This document shows, piece after piece, positions 1,472 to 63,015 of a stretch of 64,000 nucleotides of DNA. This DNA is from Octopus vulgaris. Lineage: Eukaryota. A model generated the notes under the pieces. That model was not told where the DNA came from and ran no database searches. It worked only from the letters and a program-made list of their open reading frames with translations. Position 1 is the stretch's first letter. Each line of letters begins with the position of its first letter. A program made the position numbers and the translations under genes. The stretch is from NCBI GenBank assembly GCA_951406725.2, contig OX597814.1, forward strand, positions 197,346,001 to 197,410,000, written 5' to 3'.

Positions 1472-3139
1472 ATATATATATATATATATATAAACACGAT
1501 TATACATATATAAACATGTATGTATTTATATGTATACATATAAACACGTAAACATATGTGTATATACACATCTACACATATATATACATGTGTGTGTTTG
1601 TGATACATGTCTGTATGTATATGTGTGCGTTTATGTATATATATATATATATATATTCGACAATAATATTAAGGATTGGCCTTAATAGGCCATTCAACTC
1701 ACTAAAACGAGCAGCTAAACTCAAACCGCTAAATGGTAGTAATTCAGAAATCAAAGGAAAATTAAAAACATTTACCCTAATCATCTTTGGACAATGCATT
1801 GTTTCGACGTACTTTTTGGTAAACCAGCCTAATTAAATTAAATTAAATTTAATCAAGTCAATTTACCACAGGCCCGTCTCATCGGCAAAGAAGCCAGGAG
1901 GAATAAATATTCCACGAGGCAACAGCATCGATAAATATATATATATATATAGATATATATATATATGGATATGTATGTCTATATACATACATATGTATGC
2001 ATTAATAAAGAGAGTCATGCACACAGCTTTCATGGCGTGTTGTTCCTTTCACCAGTAGATCACAACTACTTCGACACTTAGTTTCCTCTCATAAACGCCA
2101 CCGCCCACTCCAGATGCATTGAACAACATCGTTGATGTCAATGAACATCCGCATTCTTTAGGCATTCGCTTTCGCCTGTTTTTTTTTATTTCCGTTATCC
2201 ACACATTCTCCAAGCCAAACCGGCTGTTGAAACACTAAGAGTCTTTGTGAACAATATTTTCAATAGAAATTCCGTATCGAGATTGTTTCGAGAGGAATCC
2301 CTCAGTGACAGGTTGACTGACAAGATCGGCAAACGATGTCAAAAACGTTTCGTGCTAGACATAATATCGGTGAATTTGTTTCTGTTAACTTTCTCGAGCG
2401 ATAGCGACCAGTCGGTCGTGATAAAATTGTGATTTATTTTGTCAGTTGAGATTATCGTGCTTTCTGTATAGAGAATTGAATCTACCTATTCATTCATTGG
2501 ATTACCGTGAATTTGACAGTGTACTATTCTTCAGACCGTTGTACTTATCACGTTATCACGGAGATGACTGAGTCTCACACAGTGTTGGCCATATGAAAGA
2601 TTTCCGCATAGTTTTCTCTTGTAATGCTTAGGGCGACTCACGAATATGATAGAAAACATAGCTTTAAGGACTTGCAATGTGTATAGTATATTCTTGTTTA
2701 CAATACGAATTTTTTGTCACAGCAATATGAGATTTTGGCTTTATCTGAAACCAATTGAAAAGACCCAGAAACGAGAAGAGGAAAATATGTGAGATATATA
2801 TGGATTGATATTTTGGAATTTATCTTCATGAAAATGTTTGCTATGGGAATGAAGTGAAAGAAAATAATGACGGTAGTTACAGAATCACAAGTACTTATTT
2901 TTATGCTGTGCTGACATTAATGTTTCGTACTTCCATGAATACACACAGGGAATGAAAAGAATATCAAAGTTTGGTGTCGAAAATATTGTTAATATTCCCA
3001 GTTTTGAAGACTTTGTGGAAATTGTTAAGAGGAGAACCGAGGGAGGAAACTTTTACAAGCTGTGTATGGCGATTTCGCAAAAACACCTGCAGATGTGACG
3101 TTTTGATTTTCCTTCTTTTTTAATAATAGCTTCATATAA

Positions 3140-3440
3140 AGGCACGTGACCTAGTTGTTAGGGCTTTGTATTCACAATCGCTAAGTCGCAGGTTCGATTT
3201 CCGGACCAGGTGATGCATTGTGTTTTGGAGCAATACACTTCATTTCACGTCGCTCCAGTCCACTGAGCCAGCTGTAAATGGGTGACCCTGCGATGGACTG
3301 GTCTTCTGATCAGGGAAAATGTTCGCTTGTTCGCCTGGCCAGCGGGGTGACATCATTCGAAAGCTAAAACTATGCAAAGGGCATTGTCACCAGTGATTAT
3401 AGCAACATCCGATAACCTGGTCAATCACGTGATCATGTGA
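3140..3440 (+). mobile_element. tRNA-derived SINE family C, decayed
   Basis: GGTTCGATTTCC B-box; body matches 61995-62255; tail matches fragments at 19537-19650 and 22058-22162. Confidence 0.75.
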
Positions 3441-22797: not shown

Positions 22798-23228
22798 ATA
22801 TATATACATGTATGTATATGTGCATATTCATATCTATTATATCAAAGTCAATGTGTTCGTGTGTCACTTATACATTAAAAAACTGCTGCACCGATCATAA
22901 TGAAATTGGAACGCAAAATCCAAGCGTAGGGAGAAGGGTAATGCTGTGTGTTTCATACAATTTCATGAACCAAAATTACTGAATGGATCCTTATGATATT
23001 TGGAACTCAGGTTTAATGCATAAGGGCGAGTGTAATGCAATATATTTGGTTTGAATTTCAGACGGCTTAAAGGGAGCAGAACCCCCATGAAAATTCACAA
23101 ATTTTCGATATTGATGAAATTTCAACCATGGTTAATTGACACACATCAAGAAGTATTCTCAGTTTCCACTTCACATGAGGATTCTAAGGCACCCTAATGG
23201 GGGCCTTAACTCCCAAAATTATAGATAA

Positions 23229-23277
<49 letters not shown>

Positions 23278-23280
<3 letters not shown>

Positions 23281-23622
23281 CATAAAAGTAAATAAATGGC
23301 ACAACGAAGTACCGATATTTACTGGAAAATAGCGAACGTAATAAATACGACGCTAATGTATAGCTTCACTGCGTATGTACTAGCAAAAATGCGTGTGTGC
23401 AACAAACATGAAAACAATTGTCTTACCTCTAGGAAGAACATCTGAAAAATGAAATACCTAGAAAGGGATAATGTGGTACCGGTTTCAGATTCTTCAAAAT
23501 ATGTCTGCCCACATATATTTGATTTATCTTCATCAGCCACGTATACCTCGACAATTTATTACGTTCGCTATTTTCCAGTAAATATCAGTACTTCGTTGTG
23601 CCATTTATTTACTATTATGTAT
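23278..23622. mobile_element. 345-bp element with 69-bp terminal inverted repeats, next to (TA)n, carrying a hammerhead ribozyme
   Basis: 23278-23346 is the reverse complement of 23554-23622 with 2 mismatches. Confidence 0.8.
23473..23540 (-). ncRNA. Minimal type I hammerhead ribozyme
   Basis: GUGG-CUGAUGA-AGAU[..UCAAAUAUAUGU-GGGCAG-ACAUAUUUUGA..]AUCU-GAAA-C-CG-G-UA-CCAC; complete catalytic core; stems I and II pair; palindromic ACCGGU stem III. Confidence 0.75.
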
Positions 23623-23739
23623 AATTTTACCCTCACGGGCTATCCTTTACTGGAAAGCAATACTCTCGTATTGCATTAATATTTTCATATATATATATAT
23701 ATATATATACATTTAGATATTTATGTATAGATATATACA

Positions 23740-24105
23740 TATGTCTGTATATACATGTATGTATATGTCTATATGTGTATGTATATGTCTATATGTGTAT
23801 GTATATGTCTATATGTGTATGTATATGTCTATATGTGTATGTATATTCTATATGTGTATGTATATGTATATATGTGTATGTATATGTGTATGTATATGTC
23901 TATATGTGTATGTATATGTCTATATGTGTATGTATATGTCTATATGTGTATGTATATGTCTATATGTGTATGTATATGTCTATATGTGTATGTATATGTC
24001 TATATGTGTATGCATATGTCTATATGTGTGTGTATATGTGTATGTATATACATGTACATATGTGTGTGTGTGTATATGTATGTATATATGTGTGTGTGTG
24101 TATGT
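23740..24105. repeat. 20-bp minisatellite (tatatgtctatatgtgtatg)n
   Basis: About 12 near-perfect units. Confidence 0.92.
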
Positions 24106-25311
24106 ATAAATATTTATATCTATTGTATATATTCTATTATTATTAGTGTTATTATTAGTTGTAGTAGTAATGTTAGAAGTAGTAGTAGTAGTAGTAGTAA
24201 GGTAGTTAGCGTGTTGTCAGGATTGTTACTGCACCGAACAAATGTTCAACGGAATTTCTTCCTATTCTAGGTCCTGTGTTCATATTCCACCTTTCATCTT
24301 TTCGCAGTCGTTAAAGCATGTACCAGCTGAGCACTGGGGTTGATCTAATCGACTAACCTTCCCCACTAAACTCACTGTTTCTGCGCCAAAAGTTGAAAGA
24401 ATAATTATTGTTATTACCATTGCTGAAATGGTTATTGTCGGATTCATATTTTGCGTCCATAACAATGCTCCTGGGGAAAATTAGATTTTTACTTCAGTTA
24501 CTTGAAAGGGAAAAATGTTGACTTTCTTTATTATTTATGTTTGCTTTTTGCGGTGGTAGGAGTAGCTGCTGTTTACTTTGTCGACGGAAGGCTTTCAAAC
24601 ATTGGTTCATTCATCCATCCATTCATTCTATCACACGGGAATGAAAATTAAGTTCCGCCTTTAGTCTTTTAATGCGCTTATGCAAACATCCATTATACTT
24701 CTTTAAAAAATATTCAATACTGTCAGTTTTAAAGGATTGGTTGGGAATATTAGCTACAAATGTGGACACTATGGATTCGATCATGCCAATATCTGGGAAA
24801 TTTCAGAAAAACCAGATTTAAAAATTGTAAGGGCCATAATTTTAGTCACGGATATTTGCATCTTGACAGACACAAATGAAAAATCCTGCGTCGAAATTGC
24901 AAATATTGACAAGGTGTTAAGAATAACGTCAGCACTATATGTTTGCTAGAGTTGTGAGTCGCGAAGACGCTTGGGATATGTATCGGCTCTGGAGTAAGAG
25001 TAGAACGTTCGAGACATTGGCTAGAAACGAAGAAAACACATCCATAAACCATTTCCTGATTCATTGAGAAGATATTGTGTCACACATCTTTCATTGTTTT
25101 CCATTAAATACCCCCTCATTAGCAAATTATGTTGCTATTTGTTTTGGAAAACCACAACATTCTCACTTGTTTTTGTCGGTTTGTATGTAATGATGTATAC
25201 AAAATTTAAGCGCAATTTCAGTATTTCATGTTACGTAATAATAACTATTATTACCATTATTATAATCGTAATCATCATCACAATCATTGTGATCATCATT
25301 ATTATTATTCA

Positions 25312-28811: not shown

Positions 28812-30362
28812 TACTTACTTTGATACTTTGATAGGTTTCGGCCATTATTGGCCCAGGCCATGTCTAACTTAATAGCACCACCTGGTGAAGTCTTTCAAGT
28901 CAGAATTTGGGCACTATGGCCCACTCAAGTAGAGAGTTATTGTTTACAGAGACATATCCGGGTGTAGGGGGTTTATCCGGGATTTCTTGAAGGAATCTGT
29001 CCAAAGACTTCTTGAACCCTATAGGGTCAGTTTCTGTTTTAATGTGTTTTGGTGTAATGTTAAAGAGAGCGGGGCCAATTGAGGTGAAATAATTGTGCCG
29101 TATTGTTGTTATGAGATGAGAGTGCGATTTTTGTTTTGGGCGGATGGCACGGGGCCCAAGCCTTGGATGTACCTTAAAGGTGATGCCAACATCATTTGGG
29201 CAATGCTGATGGAATATTTTCCACATCATGCAGATGATGTAGCGCTCACGACGACGTTGGAGAGAATAGAGTTTTAGCTTTTCTAGTCGACCCCAATAGT
29301 CGAGGCCTGTCATGCCATCTATCTTTTTTGTGATTGCCCTTTGAGGTGCTTCGACTTTTATGATACCTTGTATTGTGTGGGGAGACCACAGTGGACAACA
29401 GTATTCAAGGTGGGGTCGGGCAAAAGTGGAGAAGAGAAGGATAATCGTGTGGATATCTCTCGACTGGAAAGTTCTGAGAATCCAGGAACACATTCTGCGG
29501 GCCATGTCAACTTTGGTGTTTATATGAGTGGCCCAGCTTACGTTGTTGTCCACAATTACTCCCAAGTCTCTGATGTTGTTGGACGCCGCGAGAGTTTCAC
29601 CTGAAGGAAGGGAGTATGGGAGTTTCAGGGCATCCTCTTTTCCAAAGTGGATTAGCTCAAATTTATCCTCGTTCAGCAGCATATTGTTTTTTTCTGCCCA
29701 TTGGATAACAGCCAGTAGATCTGACTGAAGGCATGTCCGGTCACTCGCCTCATTTATGACCTTCTGTAGCTTGGAGTCATCTGCAAAGATTTTTATGTTG
29801 CTGTGCTTGATGATGTCATTAATGTCATTAATGTAAATGATGAAAAGAAGTGGGCCCAGCACAGTGCCTTGCGGAACGCCACTACTGACTCTGGCTGGGC
29901 TTGATTTTACCCCTTCAACTACAACATGTTGAGATCTGTCTGTCAGGAAACACTTAATCCATTTCAGTAACTTTCCAGAGACACCAATGTTGGATAGTTT
30001 TTTCAATAGGATCTTGTGATCGACCCTGTCGAAGGCCTTACTGAAATCAAGGTAGATGACATCGGTGTTGGAGCCCTCTCCCAAAGCTCTCAAAATGTCC
30101 TCAAAGTGATGCAGGAGCTGCGTTAGGCAGTCCCTTCCATTACGGAACCCATGTTGGTTGGAGATCAGCCGTCTGTTGCTTTCCAGAAATTGGGTTATTT
30201 GAGATCTCACCACCCTCTCAAATACCTTGATGATATGAGAGGTGAGTGAGATCGGACGGTAATTCACTGCAAGGGACTTGTTTCCCTTTTTGAAAACTGG
30301 GACAACAGACTGGGACAGAAGGTTTTTTGGAATATAGCCAGCATCCAGTGAGTTTCTCCAGT
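28812..30362 (-). mobile_element. 5'-truncated CR1-group LINE with (TATCAAAG)-like 3' tail, inserted in (TA)n
   Basis: Uninterrupted RT frame, ~90-bp 3' UTR, TA-type microsatellite on both sides. Confidence 0.95.
28900..30360 (-). CDS. Non-LTR retrotransposon ORF2 fragment (reverse transcriptase and C-terminus, ~486 aa, no own start codon)
   Basis: [57 protein letters not shown]; no stops or frameshifts. Confidence 0.9.
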
Positions 30363-32564: not shown

Positions 32565-33130
32565 TTGGGTTGTCTGGAAAGTTCGTGCCGATTTATAGTA
32601 GCTTACCCTTCGATTTATTTTAGAACATGGTTGAGTCCATAAAATAGGATTTGACTACACCTCCATTTAGAGCACAGTTTAAGCTATCTTTTCGTGGAAG
32701 AAGGTTTATGTTCCTATAACCTCTGTTAATTCTGTAACCCTTTAAAATGGAAGATACGAAAGTTCATTTTCGGCACTTGATGATTTGGAAACGAGACAAA
32801 AATTGCTGCAGCTTGGCTGGGATGTGTTACCCCACCCTCCAAATTCACCAGACATTGCTCCTTCGGATTTTCACTTATTCAGATCTCTGCAGAATAGTCT
32901 TAATGGTAAAAATTTCAATTCCTTGCATGACGTAAAAAGATACCTTGATGAATTCTTTGCCATGAAACCACCTCAGTTCTGGGAAGAGGGTATTTTCACC
33001 TTAAAAGAAAGATGGAGACGCATTATGCAACAAAATGGTTCCTATTTGGTTGATTAAAAATGTAATGGCAAGTATTTATTGACCTTTTTCTTTCCTTTAA
33101 AAATCAGCACGAACTTTCCGGACAACCCAA
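32565..33130 (+). mobile_element. Internally deleted mariner transposon (566 bp)
   Basis: ~30-bp TIRs ttgggttgtctggaaagttcgtgccgattt / aaatcagcacgaactttccggacaacccaa; TA on both sides; MEDTKVHFRHL fused to LGWDVLPHPPNSPDIAPSDFHLFRSLQN. Confidence 0.93.
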
Positions 33131-37619: not shown

Positions 37620-40270
37620 TTTGGTTTATGGTCGAGATTGTAGGTACTACTAATCTTGCTTGAATTTGACCTTGAATGGTAGGATGGTCCGGTACCGTTG
37701 TTAAGAGTACATGCAATAATTTTTGGACTTTCAGTAGAGGTTGCTTTTATATGTCTGATTATTTAGGTAGGCAGGTAAACAGTTGAGGACCTCTAGATAT
37801 CGGAATTGGAAAATCTCACAAAATCTTACATTTCTTCGACTCCAGTATTCCTCCGGTTTGATGATTGGTGCCATGTGTTTCCAGCTTCAAATCCCCATTT
37901 CTGGCACAGTCTCCAGTGTATGACTTTTACAACCTGGCCGTGTCTCCGTTTTTTATATTCTTCCTGTGCCAACTAGGGGCAATCTTCCATAATGTGTGCC
38001 ATTATCTCGTTCCAAGTTACACAGGCTCTACATTTTTCTGACACATTCTCTCTAAAAATATTTTTTCTTAAGTTGTTTGTTTTTATCGCTTGATCTTGGG
38101 CTGCTACAATCAGTCTCAGTTTCTCTTTTTAATTGCCCCCTTTTTTTATCAAAGCCAGGATTTTGTTCCACATACGTCGTTAGTGGCTCTCCAAACTCGG
38201 CCATGCAGAGGTTTCCCTTCGATCTATCTGACTTTGTATTTCATTCTTGTCTTTCTCCTATTACGCGCTTCATCACCAATTCTTTATTTTATCTGTTTTT
38301 AGTTTATCTGTGCAGCTCTCTATTCTACAAGACTTTTTTCCATCTGTACACATTCTTCTACTGCTATTAAGCCTTTTTCACCCTTCTCTCTCCTCAAGTA
38401 CAGCCGGTTGATATCAGCTTTTGGTTGGTAGGCTCCATACATCTTCAACAGCTTCCGAATTATTCTCTCAAGTTTCTATATATCGTTTCTGGTCCAGTCT
38501 ATAATTCCAACTCCATATTTGATTAAGGGTACTGCTCTTGAATTTATTGCTTTAATAAGCTTTTTTTTTAATTCAGTTTTGACTGCAATAATTTTATGAC
38601 TCTCCTTGTATACTCCCTACTGGTCATTTGTTTCATTTATTTACTATTTTTTATCTCGTCTGCTCCCAGTATACCCAAGTACATATATCATTGTCTTTTC
38701 TCAACGTTCTCATTGTTTGCCCATTCGGCATTTCAATTCCCCGGCTTCTTTCAAATCTTCTTTGTTTCATTTTCAAGATAGTGCACTTTTCTATCCCAAA
38801 TTCCATACCTACGTCATTTGAGAAAATGCGAATAATACATACAAGATTTGCAAGCTGTATCTAATTTTACGCATAAACCTTTTATATCATCCATGAAAAG
38901 GAGATTATTTATCTGACCATTTCCCAAATCGTCAGCAATTTTAACTTTTCGTAGTATGAGAGCGGTACGAGAGCCAATACGGATAGTAACGGAGATAAGC
39001 TATCGCCTTGGAATATTCTACACCTGATGATCACTTTTCCGAATTTTTGTTTTCCTCCGATCAATTTCAGTATTCCATTTTCTCCATGTTTTCTGCTATT
39101 CCAAACACGCCCATTGCTTTACTTATCCAACTGTGTGGTACCGTGACATATGCGTTTTTGTAATCTATCCATGCTGCACTCAGTCCCGTCAATCTGCGTC
39201 TACAACTTTTAATTATCATTTTATCAACTAATAACTGATCGTTTGTTGCCCTACTTTGTTTCCTGCATCCTTTCTGTTCTTCTGGAAGTAAATTGTTACT
39301 TTCCAGATGACACCGGCCATAAAGTTCAACATTAGTGGTAAACAGGTTATAGATCGAAGGCGGCGAGCTGGCAGAAACGTTAGCGCGCTGGACGAAATGC
39401 TTTGCGGTATTTCGTCTGCCGCCACGTTCTGAGTTCAAATTCCGCCGAGGCCGACTTTGCCTTTCATCCTTTCGGGGTCGATAAATAAAGTACCAGTTAC
39501 GCACTGGGGTCAATATAATCGACTTAATCCGTTTGTCTGTCCTTGTTTGTCCCCTGTGTGTTTAGCCCCTTGTGGGTAGTAAAGAAATAGGTACACAGGT
39601 TATAGATCGAAAATTTGATACCAAGATCCCTTTCAAGGGATCCTTGAGGTGTAGCTGCGTTTGTCCATATGTCATTCAAGCAGGGACGTGACACTGCTTT
39701 GGGCTTCAGGCAGTCATCCCGCTACGCAGTGACCCTTTCATGCTACTATTTAAAGTTCTTCAGTCAATAGCCTTATACTCCATCCGGGCCTGGTCCTTTC
39801 CAATTTGCTATTTTTTTAAATTTCTGTCTCACTGTCTATAGATTAATTCTGACATCATTTTGTCTTGGTACAATTTCAAGCTGTCTTCCCACATGTGTTT
39901 GCCACTCCACGCTTTATATCTCGCCAGCCTGTTCCACAGCCTTCCCCAAAATTCTTCCGCATCTGGAATCCCTTCTTGGTGTTGGCCTCCCCCTATTTCC
40001 TCAAATAGACGCCTTCTATTTGATTGGAACAGTCTATTCTGTTCGAAACCATTGCATCTTGCATCGTATCTTTTCAATTTAACCTTTAATGCTGTCACCT
40101 TTTGTGTCAATTATTCATATATCGTTTTTCACCTTTCTTCCTATCTGTTCTGCCCATTTAATTTTCTAATTGCTATCTTATTCTTCAGCTCTCCTCTCAT
40201 TATACTATTCAATGCCCGCAGTTCTTCCCGTGTCTTTTCTAGCTTCATTCATATTCTCTTCCTCCAGTTT
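37620..40270 (-). pseudogene. Decayed R4/Dong-clade non-LTR retrotransposon (RT, CCHC knuckle, start of the restriction-like endonuclease)
   Basis: KLKRYD..EQNRLFQSN; LLPEEQKGCRKQSR..DQLLVDK..AWIDYKNAY..VPHSWI; near 37880-38045 KCRAC...AHIMEDC..LAQEEYKKRRH.QV..VIHWRLC; many stops and frameshifts. Confidence 0.85.
39359..39594 (+). mobile_element. Young SINE family A inserted in the R4/Dong element
   Basis: Perfect 17-bp TSD acaggttatagatcgaa (39342-39358 and 39595-39611). Confidence 0.95.
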
Positions 40271-52191: not shown

Positions 52192-53440
52192 TTGAGTTAG
52201 CAGCTAAGTTCCCGCCGTGTTTTTAAATTTTGGAATTTATTGCGTTTTTAAATTTTGGAGTCTTTTTTTTTTCCGAGAATTCTTTTTTGAAACATTTTAG
52301 AATCTTTTTTTTTTTTTTCTAGTTAAATTTAGTTAATTTTTGTTTATTTTCAGATCATTAAAATGGAATGTCAAGTTAAGAAAAACGAGCATTTTCGACA
52401 CCTGCTTTTTGCTTTTAATCAAGGTTCTAAGGCCGCAAATGCTGCTCGCGACATTTGTGCTGTGTATGGAGAGGGTGCCATGGCTGAAAGAACCGCTCGT
52501 GATTGGTATGCCAAGTTCAAAAATAGAAATTTTGGCCTCAAAGATGCACCTCGCTCTGGCCGTCCAGTTGAGTTCGATGAAGAGCGATTAAAACAACTTT
52601 TGCATGAAAATTCTCGTCAAACGACAATGGAACTGGCAGAGAAAATGGAATGCTCCCACGCTGCTATAGAGAAGCATCTTCACATGGAGCATGGGTTCCG
52701 CACGCTTTAAGTGACAACAACTATAATCAACGAGCCACAATCTCCGCTGGCTTGCTTCCTCGTCACCGCTCAACTCATGGACACAAGCAACGATTTCTTT
52801 ACCGAATCGTTGCTGGCAACGAAAAATGGTACCTGTACATCTATATGAAACAGCGTAAGGAATGGCTTAGCACCGATAATCAAGCGACGCCGCGCGTGAA
52901 ACAAGATCTTCATCCGCGTAAAATGATGTCGTGCGTGAGGTGGGACTGGGAAGGGATTATCCATTATGAATTGCTTGAACGGAACCAAACGACCAACGCG
53001 GAACTCTATGTTCAACAGATGGAACGATTCAACACGGCTATTCAATCGGCAGCATGGAGTTCTTCTGCACGAAAACGCTCGCCTTCATATCGCCAATATA
53101 ACCAAGGAAGCCATTTAAACGCATGGCTGGGAAGTGCTGCCACACCCTCCGTACTCTCCTGATTTGGCACCAACGGATTTCCACCTCTTTCGATCTCTTT
53201 CAAATGCTATGCGCGAAGTTTCGTTCAATACTGATGCAGAATTGAGAGCTTGGTTAGATAAATTTTTCGAGTGGAAATCGGGTGATTTCTACCAACGAGG
53301 TATTGAAAATCTTGTTGAACTTTGCGAAGAAGTTGTAAACAACAAGGGTGAATAGATTATTGATTAATTAGTTATTTTTTATTAAACCATTTGAAAAATT
53401 TTAATTTTGAAAAGCAGCGGGAACTTAGTTGCCAACCCAA
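52192..53440 (+). mobile_element. Near full-length mariner transposon (~1.25 kb), inactive
   Basis: TIRs ttgagttagcagctaagttcccgc / gcgggaacttagttgccaacccaa; TA on both sides. Confidence 0.93.
52363..53355 (+). pseudogene. Mariner DD34D transposase pseudogene (frameshifts, stop, mutated catalytic motifs)
   Basis: HTH N-terminus, WVPHAL, GNEKW (normally GDEKW), LHENARLH (normally HDNARPH), PYSPDLAPTDFHLF spread over three frames. Confidence 0.92.
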
Positions 53441-59426: not shown

Positions 59427-59650
59427 GATAATATTAGGGAATAAATCCAAACTTACAGGGAAAAATTAGATTTAGGATTAAATCCAATTTTATAGTAGAA
59501 ATATATTATATTATATTAAATTAGAGATAAAACCACTATTAGGCAAATCAGTGAAAAACATAAGCCAATACATAAAATTAATTTTAAAATATATAAAAAA
59601 AAATTAAAAAATTATTTAAATAATTTAAACTTATAAATTTTAAATACATA
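59405..59650. mobile_element. AT-rich TA-embedded repeat; inverted partner at ~60720-60851
   Basis: attaaattagagataaaaccactattagg..cagtgaaaaacataagccaata is inverted at 60785-60851. Confidence 0.7.
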
Positions 59651-59660
59651 TATATATATA

Positions 59661-60693
59661 TTGTTCATAATGGCCCTCTCAGACTTGCCCTCAGCCACGC
59701 AGAGAGCCACGATCACAAGTTATGCAGATGATACAAAAGTTTCACAGGCAATACAGAACCCTGAAGACACTAAGCACCTGCAATGTGAGCTGGACAAAAT
59801 ATACAAGTGGGCTGAAAAGAATAGCATGCAGTTCAATGCTGAAAAGTTTCAAGCTTTATGCTATCAGCATGCAAAACTGAATGCAATACCCAATGAATAC
59901 ACTGGACCCGGAGGGATTGCAATCCCAGAGGCACAATCAGTGCGTGACCTGGGTATTCACATGAGTGATGACGCGACCTTTCATGTACATGTTGCTAAAC
60001 TGGCAATGAAATGTAGACGGCTGGCCGGATGGATTCTTAGAACCTTTAGAACAAGAGAACAAGAAACCATGATGGTCCTCTGGAAGACACTTGTCCTAAG
60101 CCACTTTGACTATTGCTCTCAGCTATGGTCACCATCCAGTGTCAAGTTGATCACAGAACTTGAGGCGATCCAACGAAACTACACGAAGAAGATAGCCTCT
60201 GTGCAGCATATAAGCTACTGGGAAAGACTCAAGAGAGCGTAGGCGAGAAAGATATGCCATAATATATATCTAGAAGATCCTGGAAGGACTTGTCCCAAAC
60301 TTTGGCATCGAGAGTCACACAAATGCCAGAACCCGGGCGCCACTGCGTAGTATCAAGGACTCCAAATTTGCCATCAAGATGTAGGACAAGATACTGTGAT
60401 AGCCTGGGCTTCAGAGGCCCCCAGCTCTTCAATATCCTCCCGAAGAACCTGAGGGACCTGCATGGTGTAGATGCAGATGTCTTTAAAGTAGGACTGGATC
60501 TCTTCCTGTCAGGTGTCCCGGATGAACCAACTTCACGGCAGGAGGTGCAGATGAGGGCAGCTGCATCGAACTCTCTCATGTACCAAATGGCAGTTGCTAA
60601 AAAGCATTCGTGAGGTAAAATCATGTAGCAAACCAAATGGCGGTGCCCCAGCATGGCCACAGCTCATTAGCTGGAACTGGAAAAATCAAAATC
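59661..60693 (+). mobile_element. 5'-truncated CR1-group LINE (RT C-half, small deletion, in-frame stop) inserted in (TA)n
   Basis: LFIMAL.DLP, YADDTKV, DYCSQLWSP, FRGPQLFNILP, VPDEP; tail (aaaatc)2. Confidence 0.92.
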
Positions 60694-62367: not shown

Positions 62368-63015
62368 CGAGGCGAAGTCAAAACTTATCCGCACTTTTGC
62401 CATAACATATCTTTATTATTGTCAGACTACCTTCTGCGCATGCGTACATATAGTTGGTACTATTGTGATCTCGTGATTGACGTTTTAACCTGATCATGCC
62501 ATTTTGCTTTCTGGCTTTACAATATAAGCATAGCCGCTCCACTAGCAATGTGCACCCAAGAAGTAGTGATCCGATTTCTTTGGTCGGAAGGTGTGTCAGG
62601 TGCTGAAATTCATGGGAGGCTTTTAGCACTATATGGGGACAGTGTATTACTGCGTAGAAGTGTGTATGAGTGGATCAAGAACTTTAAAATTGGCTGGACA
62701 AGCGTGACGCACGAAGAGGAAGCAGGATGCCTGTCAAACTCAATTACTCACGAGAAGATTCAACAAGTTCGGGAGATGGTAAACGGTGAACCGGTCCACC
62801 ATTACCTCTGCTTTTTGTTCTCTTTTTGTGTACATTGCTAGTGGAGCGGCCATGCTTTCACTGTAAAACCAGAAAGAAAAATGGCGCAGTCACGCTCAAA
62901 CCTTGATCACGTGACCACAATAGTACTAACTATAAGCACGCATGCGTTGAAGGTGGTGCGATCATAATAAAGATATTTTATGGCTAAAGTGCGGATAATT
63001 TTTGACTTCCCTTCG
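62368..63015. mobile_element. Fold-back mariner-type element made of two inverted left ends
   Basis: TA-CGAGG.. TIR; ~190-bp inverted arms; transposase HTH fragment VIRFLWSEGVSGAEIHGRL..YG..VYEWIKNFK. Confidence 0.85.

What the first reader, a model, noticed from the sequence alone, without database searches (positions are those of the whole stretch)
23278..23622. Intact hammerhead ribozyme boxed inside a 69-bp inverted-repeat element
Seen: minus strand 23540-23473 has every conserved hammerhead nucleotide (CUGAUGA, GAAA, GUA), stem I GUGG/CCAC, an unusually long two-part stem II closed by A-U, and a 2-bp stem III within palindromic ACCGGU. Predicted cleavage is between 23477 and 23476. It sits in a 345-bp non-coding unit with 69-bp inverted ends beside (TA)n. 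Established: minimal type I hammerheads with palindromic stem III occur in Penelope-like element terminal repeats and retrozymes and act as dimers, and Penelope insertions often carry inverted terminal segments. Inference: a non-autonomous ribozyme-carrying retroelement that looks like a MITE. I cannot tell whether this family is already described.
Basis: partly seen in the sequence, partly recalled or inferred. Interest (0 to 1): 0.72.

Follow-up and report, generated by a model that had tools for sequence, protein, structure and literature searches.

The report
Truncated Penelope-mobilised hammerhead retrozyme copy
This is one broken, mirror-image copy of a protein-free 427-base repeat with hundreds of scattered copies; it carries a predicted self-cutting hammerhead RNA and was likely pasted into TA microsatellites by a Penelope-type retrotransposon enzyme, a known kind of element, but the family also records a stepwise lengthening of one ribozyme stem that would let its role be tested.

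Summary
The hammerhead and the 69-bp inverted repeat are real, but the 345-bp MITE-like boundary is wrong. The insertion runs 23278-23688. It is two back-to-back, 5'-truncated pieces of a 427-nt circularly permuted, non-coding unit with several hundred dispersed copies. Arms end at one of two fixed points 65 nt apart, on (TA)n. All 50 simple inverted copies that could be scored pair one short end with one long end, the Penelope 'tail' signature, which a coding Neptune-type family in this genome also shows. Stems I and II covary across subfamilies (6 of 21 pairs). Stem III evolves along one lineage from a 6-nt palindrome, through a 6-nt duplication at the cut site, to 12- and 10-nt palindromes. 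Verdict: a non-LTR retrozyme, likely mobilised by a Penelope-type enzyme; this copy has one dimer-dependent ribozyme and is likely dead. Cleavage, circular RNA and the partner element are not shown; Rfam gave no hammerhead match. This scan reported the same short/long insertion pattern before, for other families in this and other genomes.

The parts
23278..23688 (.). Whole insertion (411 bp): two back-to-back truncated arms of the 427-nt unit, 3' ends pointing outwards
   Evidence: (L001 1501-1778 and 1777-1911)
23278..23555 (-). Arm 1, 278 bp, unit positions m349 to m199 (m1 = base after the predicted cut); ends at the short (S) end; runs through the cut site intact
   Evidence: 97% identical to the L002 unit
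23554..23688 (+). Arm 2, 135 bp, m131 to m265; ends at the long (L) end; no ribozyme; shares 2 bases with arm 1 at the junction
23623..23688 (+).
23473..23540 (-). Type I hammerhead motif; core CUGAUGA 23536-23530, stem II 23529-23487, GAAA 23486-23483
23478..23483 (-). Stem III palindrome ACCGGU; cannot close in a monomer (pair probability 0.00), self-duplex -8.3 kcal/mol
23476..23477 (-). Predicted cleavage site after GUA (untested)
   Evidence: sequence
23419..23429 (-). GAGGTAAGACA, a 5'-splice-site-like word 47 nt after the cut site, shared with an otherwise unrelated family; hotspot of 5' ends in other copies; function unknown
23278..23346 (.). Left half of the 69-bp inverted repeat (overlap of the two arms; pairs with 23554-23622)
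23240..23277 (.). (TA)n target run, left
23689..23709 (.). (TA)n target run, right

Best explanation
The window holds one truncated, inverted insertion of a non-coding 427-nt repeat with a type I hammerhead motif (a non-LTR retrozyme), which was likely copied from RNA into a (TA)n run by the reverse transcriptase and endonuclease of a Penelope-like element acting in trans. Shown: the permuted 427-nt unit, dispersed copies of varied 5' length, two fixed 3' ends 65 nt apart on (TA)n, one short and one long end in inverted copies, arms up to 1.8 units long that run through the cut site, no ORF, and covariation in stems I and II. Inferred: a source locus with two ribozymes in tandem is transcribed; two ribozymes pair through the stem III palindrome, cut, and the unit is likely closed to a circle (an uncut multimer would also serve); the Penelope protein binds the tail, cuts (TA)n and starts reverse transcription inside the RNA at the short or the long site; when both DNA ends are primed, one at each site, the two cDNAs meet through a few shared bases and leave an inverted pair such as this one. 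The window copy has one ribozyme with a stem III that cannot close alone and is likely a dead remnant.
For: Unit and wrap-around; of 189 tail ends examined 105 go to (TA)n, 78 wrap into the same unit, 6 other, none into a new ORF-like sequence. Copy number: 1784 first-look candidates; exact words 73, 408, 369; 318 and 198 pattern matches. End rule: of 149 distinct loci 60 are two-arm inverted; 50 have both ends scorable, all 50 short+long, 0 short+short, 0 long+long; 9 of 9 and 10 of 10 more scorable by eye. (TA)n at both ends of 42 of 60 inverted copies, at the 3' end of 72 of 83 single arms but the 5' end of 24 of 83. Of 184 S/L-ended arms 131 cross the cut site, 47 exceed one unit, 4 cross two cut sites (arms were mostly picked for holding the ribozyme). 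Covariation: 6 of 21 pairs, 67 cells, 0 of 500 shuffles, slid controls at most 11 cells. Position 17 is A (57) or C (33), never G, in 90 arms picked downstream of the core. Circular unit folds at -110.9 against -84.6 +/- 5.2 kcal/mol for 60 shuffles. A coding RT + GIY-YIG family with a CxxxxCxxC linker (781-aa frame) in this genome has a hammerhead-like motif, ends on (TA)n and shows two ends 36-37 nt apart. Print: tail at one end and inverted truncated copies (PMC8557442, PMC3846280, passages); tail = stretch between two internal RT start sites, both DNA strands cut and extended (PMC11167929, parts 1-2 of 4).
Against: No autonomous element with clear DNA identity to the unit was found; the one hint, a gappy 27-nt match of the tail start to the Neptune tail (best of 1126 windows, 0.9% of shuffles), was chosen after looking and unrelated places score higher. 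Cleavage leaves no clear mark on copy ends: among 92 of 99 arms, 6 end in m413-m1 against 3.1 expected. Long tandem arrays, typical of published retrozymes, were not seen (longest arm 773 nt). Rfam has no match. Core positions are only modestly more conserved than the rest (24/929 against 483/10510, copies not independent). Two non-simple loci break the end rule: L148 and L104 have long ends on both sides. 8 of 9 Xenopus retrozyme dimers did not cut in vitro (10.64898/2026.07.22.740005), and the anole Penelope ribozyme was not needed for insertion in vitro (PMC11167929).
Confidence: 0.82

Rival explanations
1. The copies are 5'-truncated 3' ends (pLTRs) of an autonomous Penelope-like element whose coding body I did not sample.
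For: Same insertion signature as coding elements; PLE fragments lie within 3 of the fetched loci up to (L030, L070, L147); only 40 of 1784 candidates were scored.
Against: Every long arm wraps into the same 427-nt unit; 0 of 189 tail ends lead into new coding-like sequence. The neighbouring PLE pieces differ in family, strand and distance. Longest stop-free frame in the doubled unit is 79 aa.
Confidence: 0.08
2. Mobilised by Penelope machinery, but from a linear, uncut read-through transcript of a tandem source; the ribozyme is kept for a step other than making the template, or rides along.
For: Arms pass the cut site intact and 5' ends are not enriched there; 6 of 43 second-lap 5' ends fall at m46-m51, which could be a transcript start; PMC11167929 found unprocessed RNA to be the main substrate in vitro. 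This rival shares the insertion mechanism with the best explanation and differs only in the template.
Against: Compensatory changes in stems I, II and III along the lineage imply that the fold mattered in successive source elements; at least 6 arms cross two cut sites; the m46-m51 hotspot also sits at the foot of a predicted hairpin, so it may be an RT pause.
Confidence: 0.35
3. A MITE (non-autonomous DNA transposon inserting at TA) that happens to carry a hammerhead.
For: 69-bp inverted repeat at 97%, TA flanks, no ORF; mariner-like remnants occur in the window (by eye).
Against: Arms are unequal, repeat length ranges 0-483 bp among 50 copies, 83 of 149 loci have a single arm, inner ends are scattered, copies wrap in tandem.
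Confidence: 0.02
4. The palindromes and paired stems arise from DNA-level template switching at hairpins, not from selection on an RNA enzyme.
For: Quasi-palindrome correction is a known mutational process (recalled, no call); 38 of the first 100 extended stem III words are imperfect palindromes; the core shows only weak extra conservation.
Against: Stem I partners lie 60 nt apart across the core and change together at two pairs; position 17 alternates only between permitted bases; a second, unrelated family has the same core and layout.
Confidence: 0.08

Closest known systems
Metazoan non-LTR retrozymes (Cervera and de la Pena 2020, PMC7229834, parts 2-3 of 6 and passages; Li, Clavereau and Pollet 2026, 10.64898/2026.07.22.740005, parts 1-3 of 5)
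   Same: Non-coding, AT-rich unit of 150-450 nt with one type I hammerhead, partial tandems, self-paired circular fold, co-occurrence with Penelope-like elements; weak palindromic helix III as in axolotl HHR_Amex1.
   Different: Dispersed pieces of under two units rather than arrays; frequent inverted pairs with a short/long end rule; no homology to an autonomous pLTR shown here (Li et al. found it for 21 of 57 Xenopus families); expression and circles not shown.
EN+ Penelope-like elements, Neptune type (Craig et al. 2021, PMC8557442, passages and supplement search; Arkhipova et al. 2013, PMC3846280, passages; Cervera and de la Pena 2014, PMC4209133, parts 1-2 of 4)
   Same: 5' truncation, partial tandems, inverted truncated copy, tail at one end, (TA)n targeting, hammerhead with small palindromic helix III and long helix II.
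   Different: No RT or GIY-YIG ORF; tail is 65-66 nt, not 30-40; stem II closes with A-U, G-U, G-C or a mismatch directly after A9, without the unpaired base and G10.1-C11.1 pair of the published PLE consensus.
Poseidon of Anolis carolinensis, in vitro (Frangieh et al. 2024, PMC11167929, parts 1-2 of 4)
   Same: Two internal start points that define a tail; AT-rich targets; ribozyme upstream of the start points; copies do not end at the cut site.
   Different: That element is autonomous and its tail lies in the ORF; the parts read do not report a one-short-one-long rule for inverted copies.
Palindromic stem III / dimeric hammerheads of repeats (Perreault et al. 2011, PMC3088659, passages incl. 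legend of Fig. S8)
   Same: Stem-loop III is palindromic and can pair in a dimer (10 bp in Aedes).
   Different: Here five to seven stem III forms lie in order along one lineage of one family, with a duplication at the cut site as the first step.

Membership tests
Type I hammerhead ribozyme | Core C3 U4 G5 A6 N7 G8 A9, G12 A13 A14, A15.1-U16.1, H17 | tested here: met
   per-position counts in 92 arms picked outside the core
Type I hammerhead ribozyme | Three stems around the core, supported by covariation | tested here: met
   Stems I and II: 6 of 21 pairs with two-sided changes. Stem III: only as dimer in this copy; palindrome kept or regained in 62 of the first 100 extended forms
Type I hammerhead ribozyme | Match to an Rfam hammerhead model | tested here: not met
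   No match at E up to 1 or 10
Type I hammerhead ribozyme | Mg2+-dependent self-cleavage | not testable with these tools
   Bench assay needed; copy ends give no clear sign
Non-LTR retrozyme | Non-coding, low-GC unit of 150-450 nt with one type I hammerhead, no LTR | tested here: met
   427-nt unit, longest frame 79 aa, 2-kb bin 32% GC
Non-LTR retrozyme | Tandem units with at least two complete ribozymes | tested here: met
   L171, L227, L241 hold two complete motifs 428-433 bp apart; no longer arrays seen; the window copy itself does not meet it
Non-LTR retrozyme | Expressed as linear and circular RNA | not testable with these tools
   No holder on record as RNA; only contigs available
Non-LTR retrozyme | Target-site duplication longer than 4 bp when present | tested here: inconclusive
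   (TA)n flanks hide any duplication
EN+ Penelope-like element (autonomous) | ORF with RT and GIY-YIG in cis | tested here: not met
   tblastn with a Neptune-type protein of this genome: nothing in the window; only unrelated neighbouring fragments at a few loci
Penelope-type insertion (works like) | 5' truncation, partial tandem, inverted truncated copy | tested here: met
Penelope-type insertion (works like) | Optional tail at one end (two fixed 3' ends) | tested here: met
   50 of 50 scorable inverted copies short+long; tail 65-66 nt
Penelope-type insertion (works like) | Sequence homology to the pLTR of an autonomous partner | tested here: inconclusive
   No blastn match to 43 loci, most with PLE protein hits; weak post-hoc tail match
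MITE | Fixed terminal inverted repeats at both ends, uniform size | tested here: not met
   Repeat overlap 0-483 bp, arm lengths 22-736 bp, 83 of 149 loci single-armed

The most novel reading that the evidence does not exclude
This family is a fossil record of a ribozyme evolving inside a circular RNA parasite of Penelope enzymes: a 6-nt duplication exactly at the scissile bond, itself a scar of cutting and rejoining or of an RT jump at the cut end, turned a dimer-only hammerhead into one that can close stem III alone, and later compensatory changes rebuilt longer palindromes (12 nt, then 10 nt), showing that cleavage is under selection in each round of mobilisation and that the element moved between dimer and monomer modes.
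Probability: 0.3. Interest if true: 0.66.

Novelty: new member of a known kind. Interest (0 to 1): 0.44.

Why it matters
What hammerheads do for Penelope-like elements and retrozymes is open: the 2021 survey calls their function unclear, and the 2024 in vitro work found the ribozyme dispensable for insertion. A protein-free family with Penelope insertion marks, covarying stems and a dated series of natural stem III variants gives ready-made constructs to ask whether cleavage mode (dimer or monomer) matters. The one-short-one-long rule constrains how inverted Penelope insertions form and supports, by insertion signature, the proposal that animal retrozymes ride on Penelope enzymes. The window copy itself is an ordinary dead remnant.

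Tried and rejected
Rfam scans: only microsatellite-driven miRNA matches below threshold; no hammerhead. Search for the autonomous partner: a GIY-YIG family search gave 150 scored of 6136 candidates and 30 loci; 13 longer stretches; blastn of the unit against them found nothing beyond 14-nt words and one family copy. PLE fragments next to L030, L070, L147, L174, L176 are of other families or kilobases away and were rejected as chance neighbours. One Pfam accession for a PLE domain was not in the library. Expression: no RNA holder listed; contigs of runs guessed to be RNA cover the unit but cannot show transcription, ends or circles; not used as evidence. 5' ends at the cut site: not enriched (one exact case, L142). 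Cofolding two window ribozymes did not give the active dimer as the lowest-energy fold. One search used a mistyped word and is ignored; one search stopped before its last step; the family B end tally was too crude to use. Phage collection: no match. MITE and chance motif rejected. Literature: searches found no paper on this family or on a stem III series within one family; 'octopus' was a search word because the genome size and microsatellites suggested such a host to me (inference, no call names the organism). Repbase and Dfam could not be searched, the supplement of PMC7229834 could not be read, one of the PMC4209133 files was not searched and the preprint's supplements are closed; any of these may already list the family.

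Full report
OBSERVATION. The minus strand at 23540-23473 has every core base of a type I hammerhead, with stem I GUGG/CCAC, a two-part stem II and the palindrome ACCGGU before GUA. It is the only hit of my descriptor in the window; shuffles give 0.01 per window and none with a palindromic stem III. The 69-bp inverted repeat is real. Rfam does not recognise the motif. The lowest-energy fold gives stem II as described, but slips the core into stem I, with z -1.4; stem III cannot close in one copy.

THE UNIT IS LARGER THAN REPORTED. A search of the own genome (2.8 Gb, 227 contigs) gave 1784 candidates, 40 scored. Long copies repeat with a period of 427 nt, so I used one natural unit (L002), numbered from the base after the cut site (m1), as a ruler. 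On it the window copy is two arms: 23555-23278 on the minus strand (m349 to m199, through the ribozyme) and 23554-23688 on the plus strand (m131 to m265). The inverted repeat is the overlap m131-m199. The unit has no frame over 79 aa and folds as a circle far better than shuffles (-110.9 against -84.6 +/- 5.2 kcal/mol, 60 shuffles).

COPIES. Exact words occur 73 times (ribozyme), 99 (after the cut), 369 and 408 (tail). A loose core pattern gave 318 matches, 70 of the first 100 of this family and 30 of a second family; a pattern for longer stem III gave 198. So there are at least several hundred arms. Runs with four organism labels hold the repeat. I mapped 149 distinct loci, picked by blast, ribozyme, post-cut and tail words, so not a random sample: 83 single arms, 60 two-arm inverted, 6 complex. 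3' ends fall at m200 (short) or m265 (long). Of the 60 inverted copies 50 have both ends scorable, and all 50 pair a short with a long end; 10 have a lost end. Nineteen further copies scored by eye agree (9, 10; the latter were picked by the tail). Exceptions are the complex locus L148 and L104, with long ends on both sides. (TA)n flanks both ends of 42 of 60 inverted copies, and the 3' end of 72 but the 5' end of 24 of 83 single arms. Inverted overlap ranges from 0 to 483 bp, which rules out a MITE. Of 184 short- or long-ended arms 131 cross the cut site, 47 exceed one unit and 4 cross two cut sites; of 189 tail ends 105 go to (TA)n, 78 wrap into the unit and none enters a coding-like sequence. 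Three fetched loci hold two complete ribozymes in tandem (L171, L227, L241).

THE RIBOZYME IS UNDER CONSTRAINT IN THE LINEAGE. In 54 distinct motifs 94% of cells pair; 6 of 21 pairs change on both sides (2 in stem I, 4 in stem II; 67 cells; 0 of 500 shuffles; slid structures at most 11 cells). Related copies inflate cell counts, and most rows were picked through core words, so core invariance there is by construction. In 92 of the 99 arms picked downstream of the cut, core positions differ in 24 of 929 letters against 483 of 10510 elsewhere, and position 17 is A or C only. The family stem I is 6 bp; the window copy has lost one pair.

STEM III SERIES. Looking at the cut site showed copies with longer stem III. 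Among the first 100 of 198 matches (my tally): ACCUGCGCAGGU 27, ACCUGCAGGU 24, ACCGGCUCCGGU 16, ACCGGCGCCGGU 9, ACCGACGCCGGU 8, ACCGGUCCCGGU 5, ACCGGAUCCGGU 2, point variants 9; 62 are perfect palindromes. A tree of 142 arms built without stem III is ladder-like; all 38 extended forms form one clade (bootstrap 99), with nested clades for the later forms (100, 100); the 10-nt form is not cleanly monophyletic. The first step is an exact duplication of the six bases before the cut in a GUC ancestor; later steps restore and then alter the palindrome by paired changes. The 12-nt forms can close stem III in one molecule (pair probability 0.17-0.76 against 0.00 for 6-nt forms and for the one 10-nt form tried), and self-duplexes go from -8.3 to between -12 and -26 kcal/mol. 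Terminal branches shorten from the GCAG/CTGC subfamilies (median 0.017) through the window type (0.012) to the palindromic 12- and 10-nt forms (0.004-0.008), which suggests, weakly, that lengthening is the direction. DNA-level palindrome correction is a rival cause.

PARTNER. The genome has many GIY-YIG matches (6136 candidates), among them a young family with a 781-aa RT + GIY-YIG frame and a CxxxxCxxC linker (Neptune type by that motif as described in PMC8557442; no tree made). It carries a U3-A8 hammerhead-like motif, ends on (TA)n, has two ends 36-37 nt apart, and one locus (L216) has a short and a long end on opposite strands. No DNA homology to the unit was found. The first 36 nt of the tail align best, over that 5.7-kb element, with its tail, in register (1 of 1126 windows; 0.9% of shuffles), but the test was post hoc and unrelated places score higher. 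The partner is unnamed.

MECHANISM. Shown: anatomy, ends, targets, covariation. From print: the Penelope tail is the stretch between two internal RT start sites, the protein cuts and extends both strands of AT-rich DNA, is predicted to be a dimer, and its ribozyme needed protein to cut and was not needed for insertion (PMC11167929); tails lie at one end of inverted insertions (PMC8557442; PMC3846280); retrozymes of coral, mussel and axolotl cut themselves and make circles, weak helix III forms as dimers (PMC7229834). Inferred: a tandem source is transcribed, cut and likely circularised; a Penelope protein starts at m200 or m265 and copies through the joint; priming from both DNA ends, one at each site, gives inverted pairs joined at a few shared bases (2 here). 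The two-ended wording came from earlier notes of this scan; I had found the end rule before reading them. Against a cut linear template: 5' ends are not enriched at the cut (6 against 3.1 expected). For a linear uncut template: 6 of 43 second-lap 5' ends lie at m46-m51, beside a splice-donor-like word shared with family B. Expression could not be tested.

NOVELTY. The kind is known (non-LTR retrozyme; link to Penelope proposed in PMC7229834 and 10.64898/2026.07.22.740005). My searches found no paper on this family and no earlier scan note on this sequence, but repeat databases and some supplements were out of reach. The scan has noted the short/long rule for other families here and in other genomes. 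Palindromic stem III in repeat hammerheads is in print (PMC4209133; PMC3088659); an ordered series within one family was not found in searches. Verdict: new member of a known kind, interest 0.44.

Noticed in passing
L191-L210 (e.g. L195 about 2650-3320): A second hammerhead family B, 30 of the first 100 matches, with no blastn similarity to family A but the same layout by eye: permuted unit of about 430 nt, ACCGGU stem III, two 3' ends about 66 nt apart, hairpin tail, (TA)n targets, inverted pairs.
   Followed up: partly
window 23429-23419 (minus); L195 36 nt after its cut site: The 11-mer GAGGTAAGACA, like a 5' splice site, is shared by families A and B at a similar distance after the cut; several family A copies have 5' ends at m46-m51.
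   Followed up: partly
L039 about 200-550: A third hammerhead family (stem III ACGAUCGU, long stem II) as an inverted pair in the (TA)n run at the 3' end of a Neptune-type element.
   Followed up: no
L037, L042, L211-L216: Young Neptune-type Penelope family with intact 781-aa frames, U3-A8 hammerhead-like motif, 36-37-nt tail with a palindromic hairpin, (TA)n targets.
   Followed up: partly
L104 1487-2547: Only 42 nt of the tail, at both ends of a 1-kb inverted structure whose arms also hold about 300 nt of other DNA; possible capture of foreign sequence.
   Followed up: partly
L063 1440-1873 and 7146-7580; L237 1269-2815: Mirror-image duplicates of whole insertions, kilobases or hundreds of bases apart.
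   Followed up: no
L148, L149: Near-identical six-piece complex insertions 25 kb apart with long ends on both sides, an exception to the end rule.
   Followed up: partly
window 28900-30200 (minus), 59637-60613, 39067-39561: Fragments that look like LINE reverse transcriptases (judged by eye).
   Followed up: no
window 32746-33057, 52333-53162, 62494-62841: Mariner-like transposase remnants (judged by eye).
   Followed up: no
window 22830-23225 and 24205-24420: The flanks hold other repeats (hits in 3 and 8 of the loci then held) and a 20-nt minisatellite at 23750-24030.
   Followed up: partly
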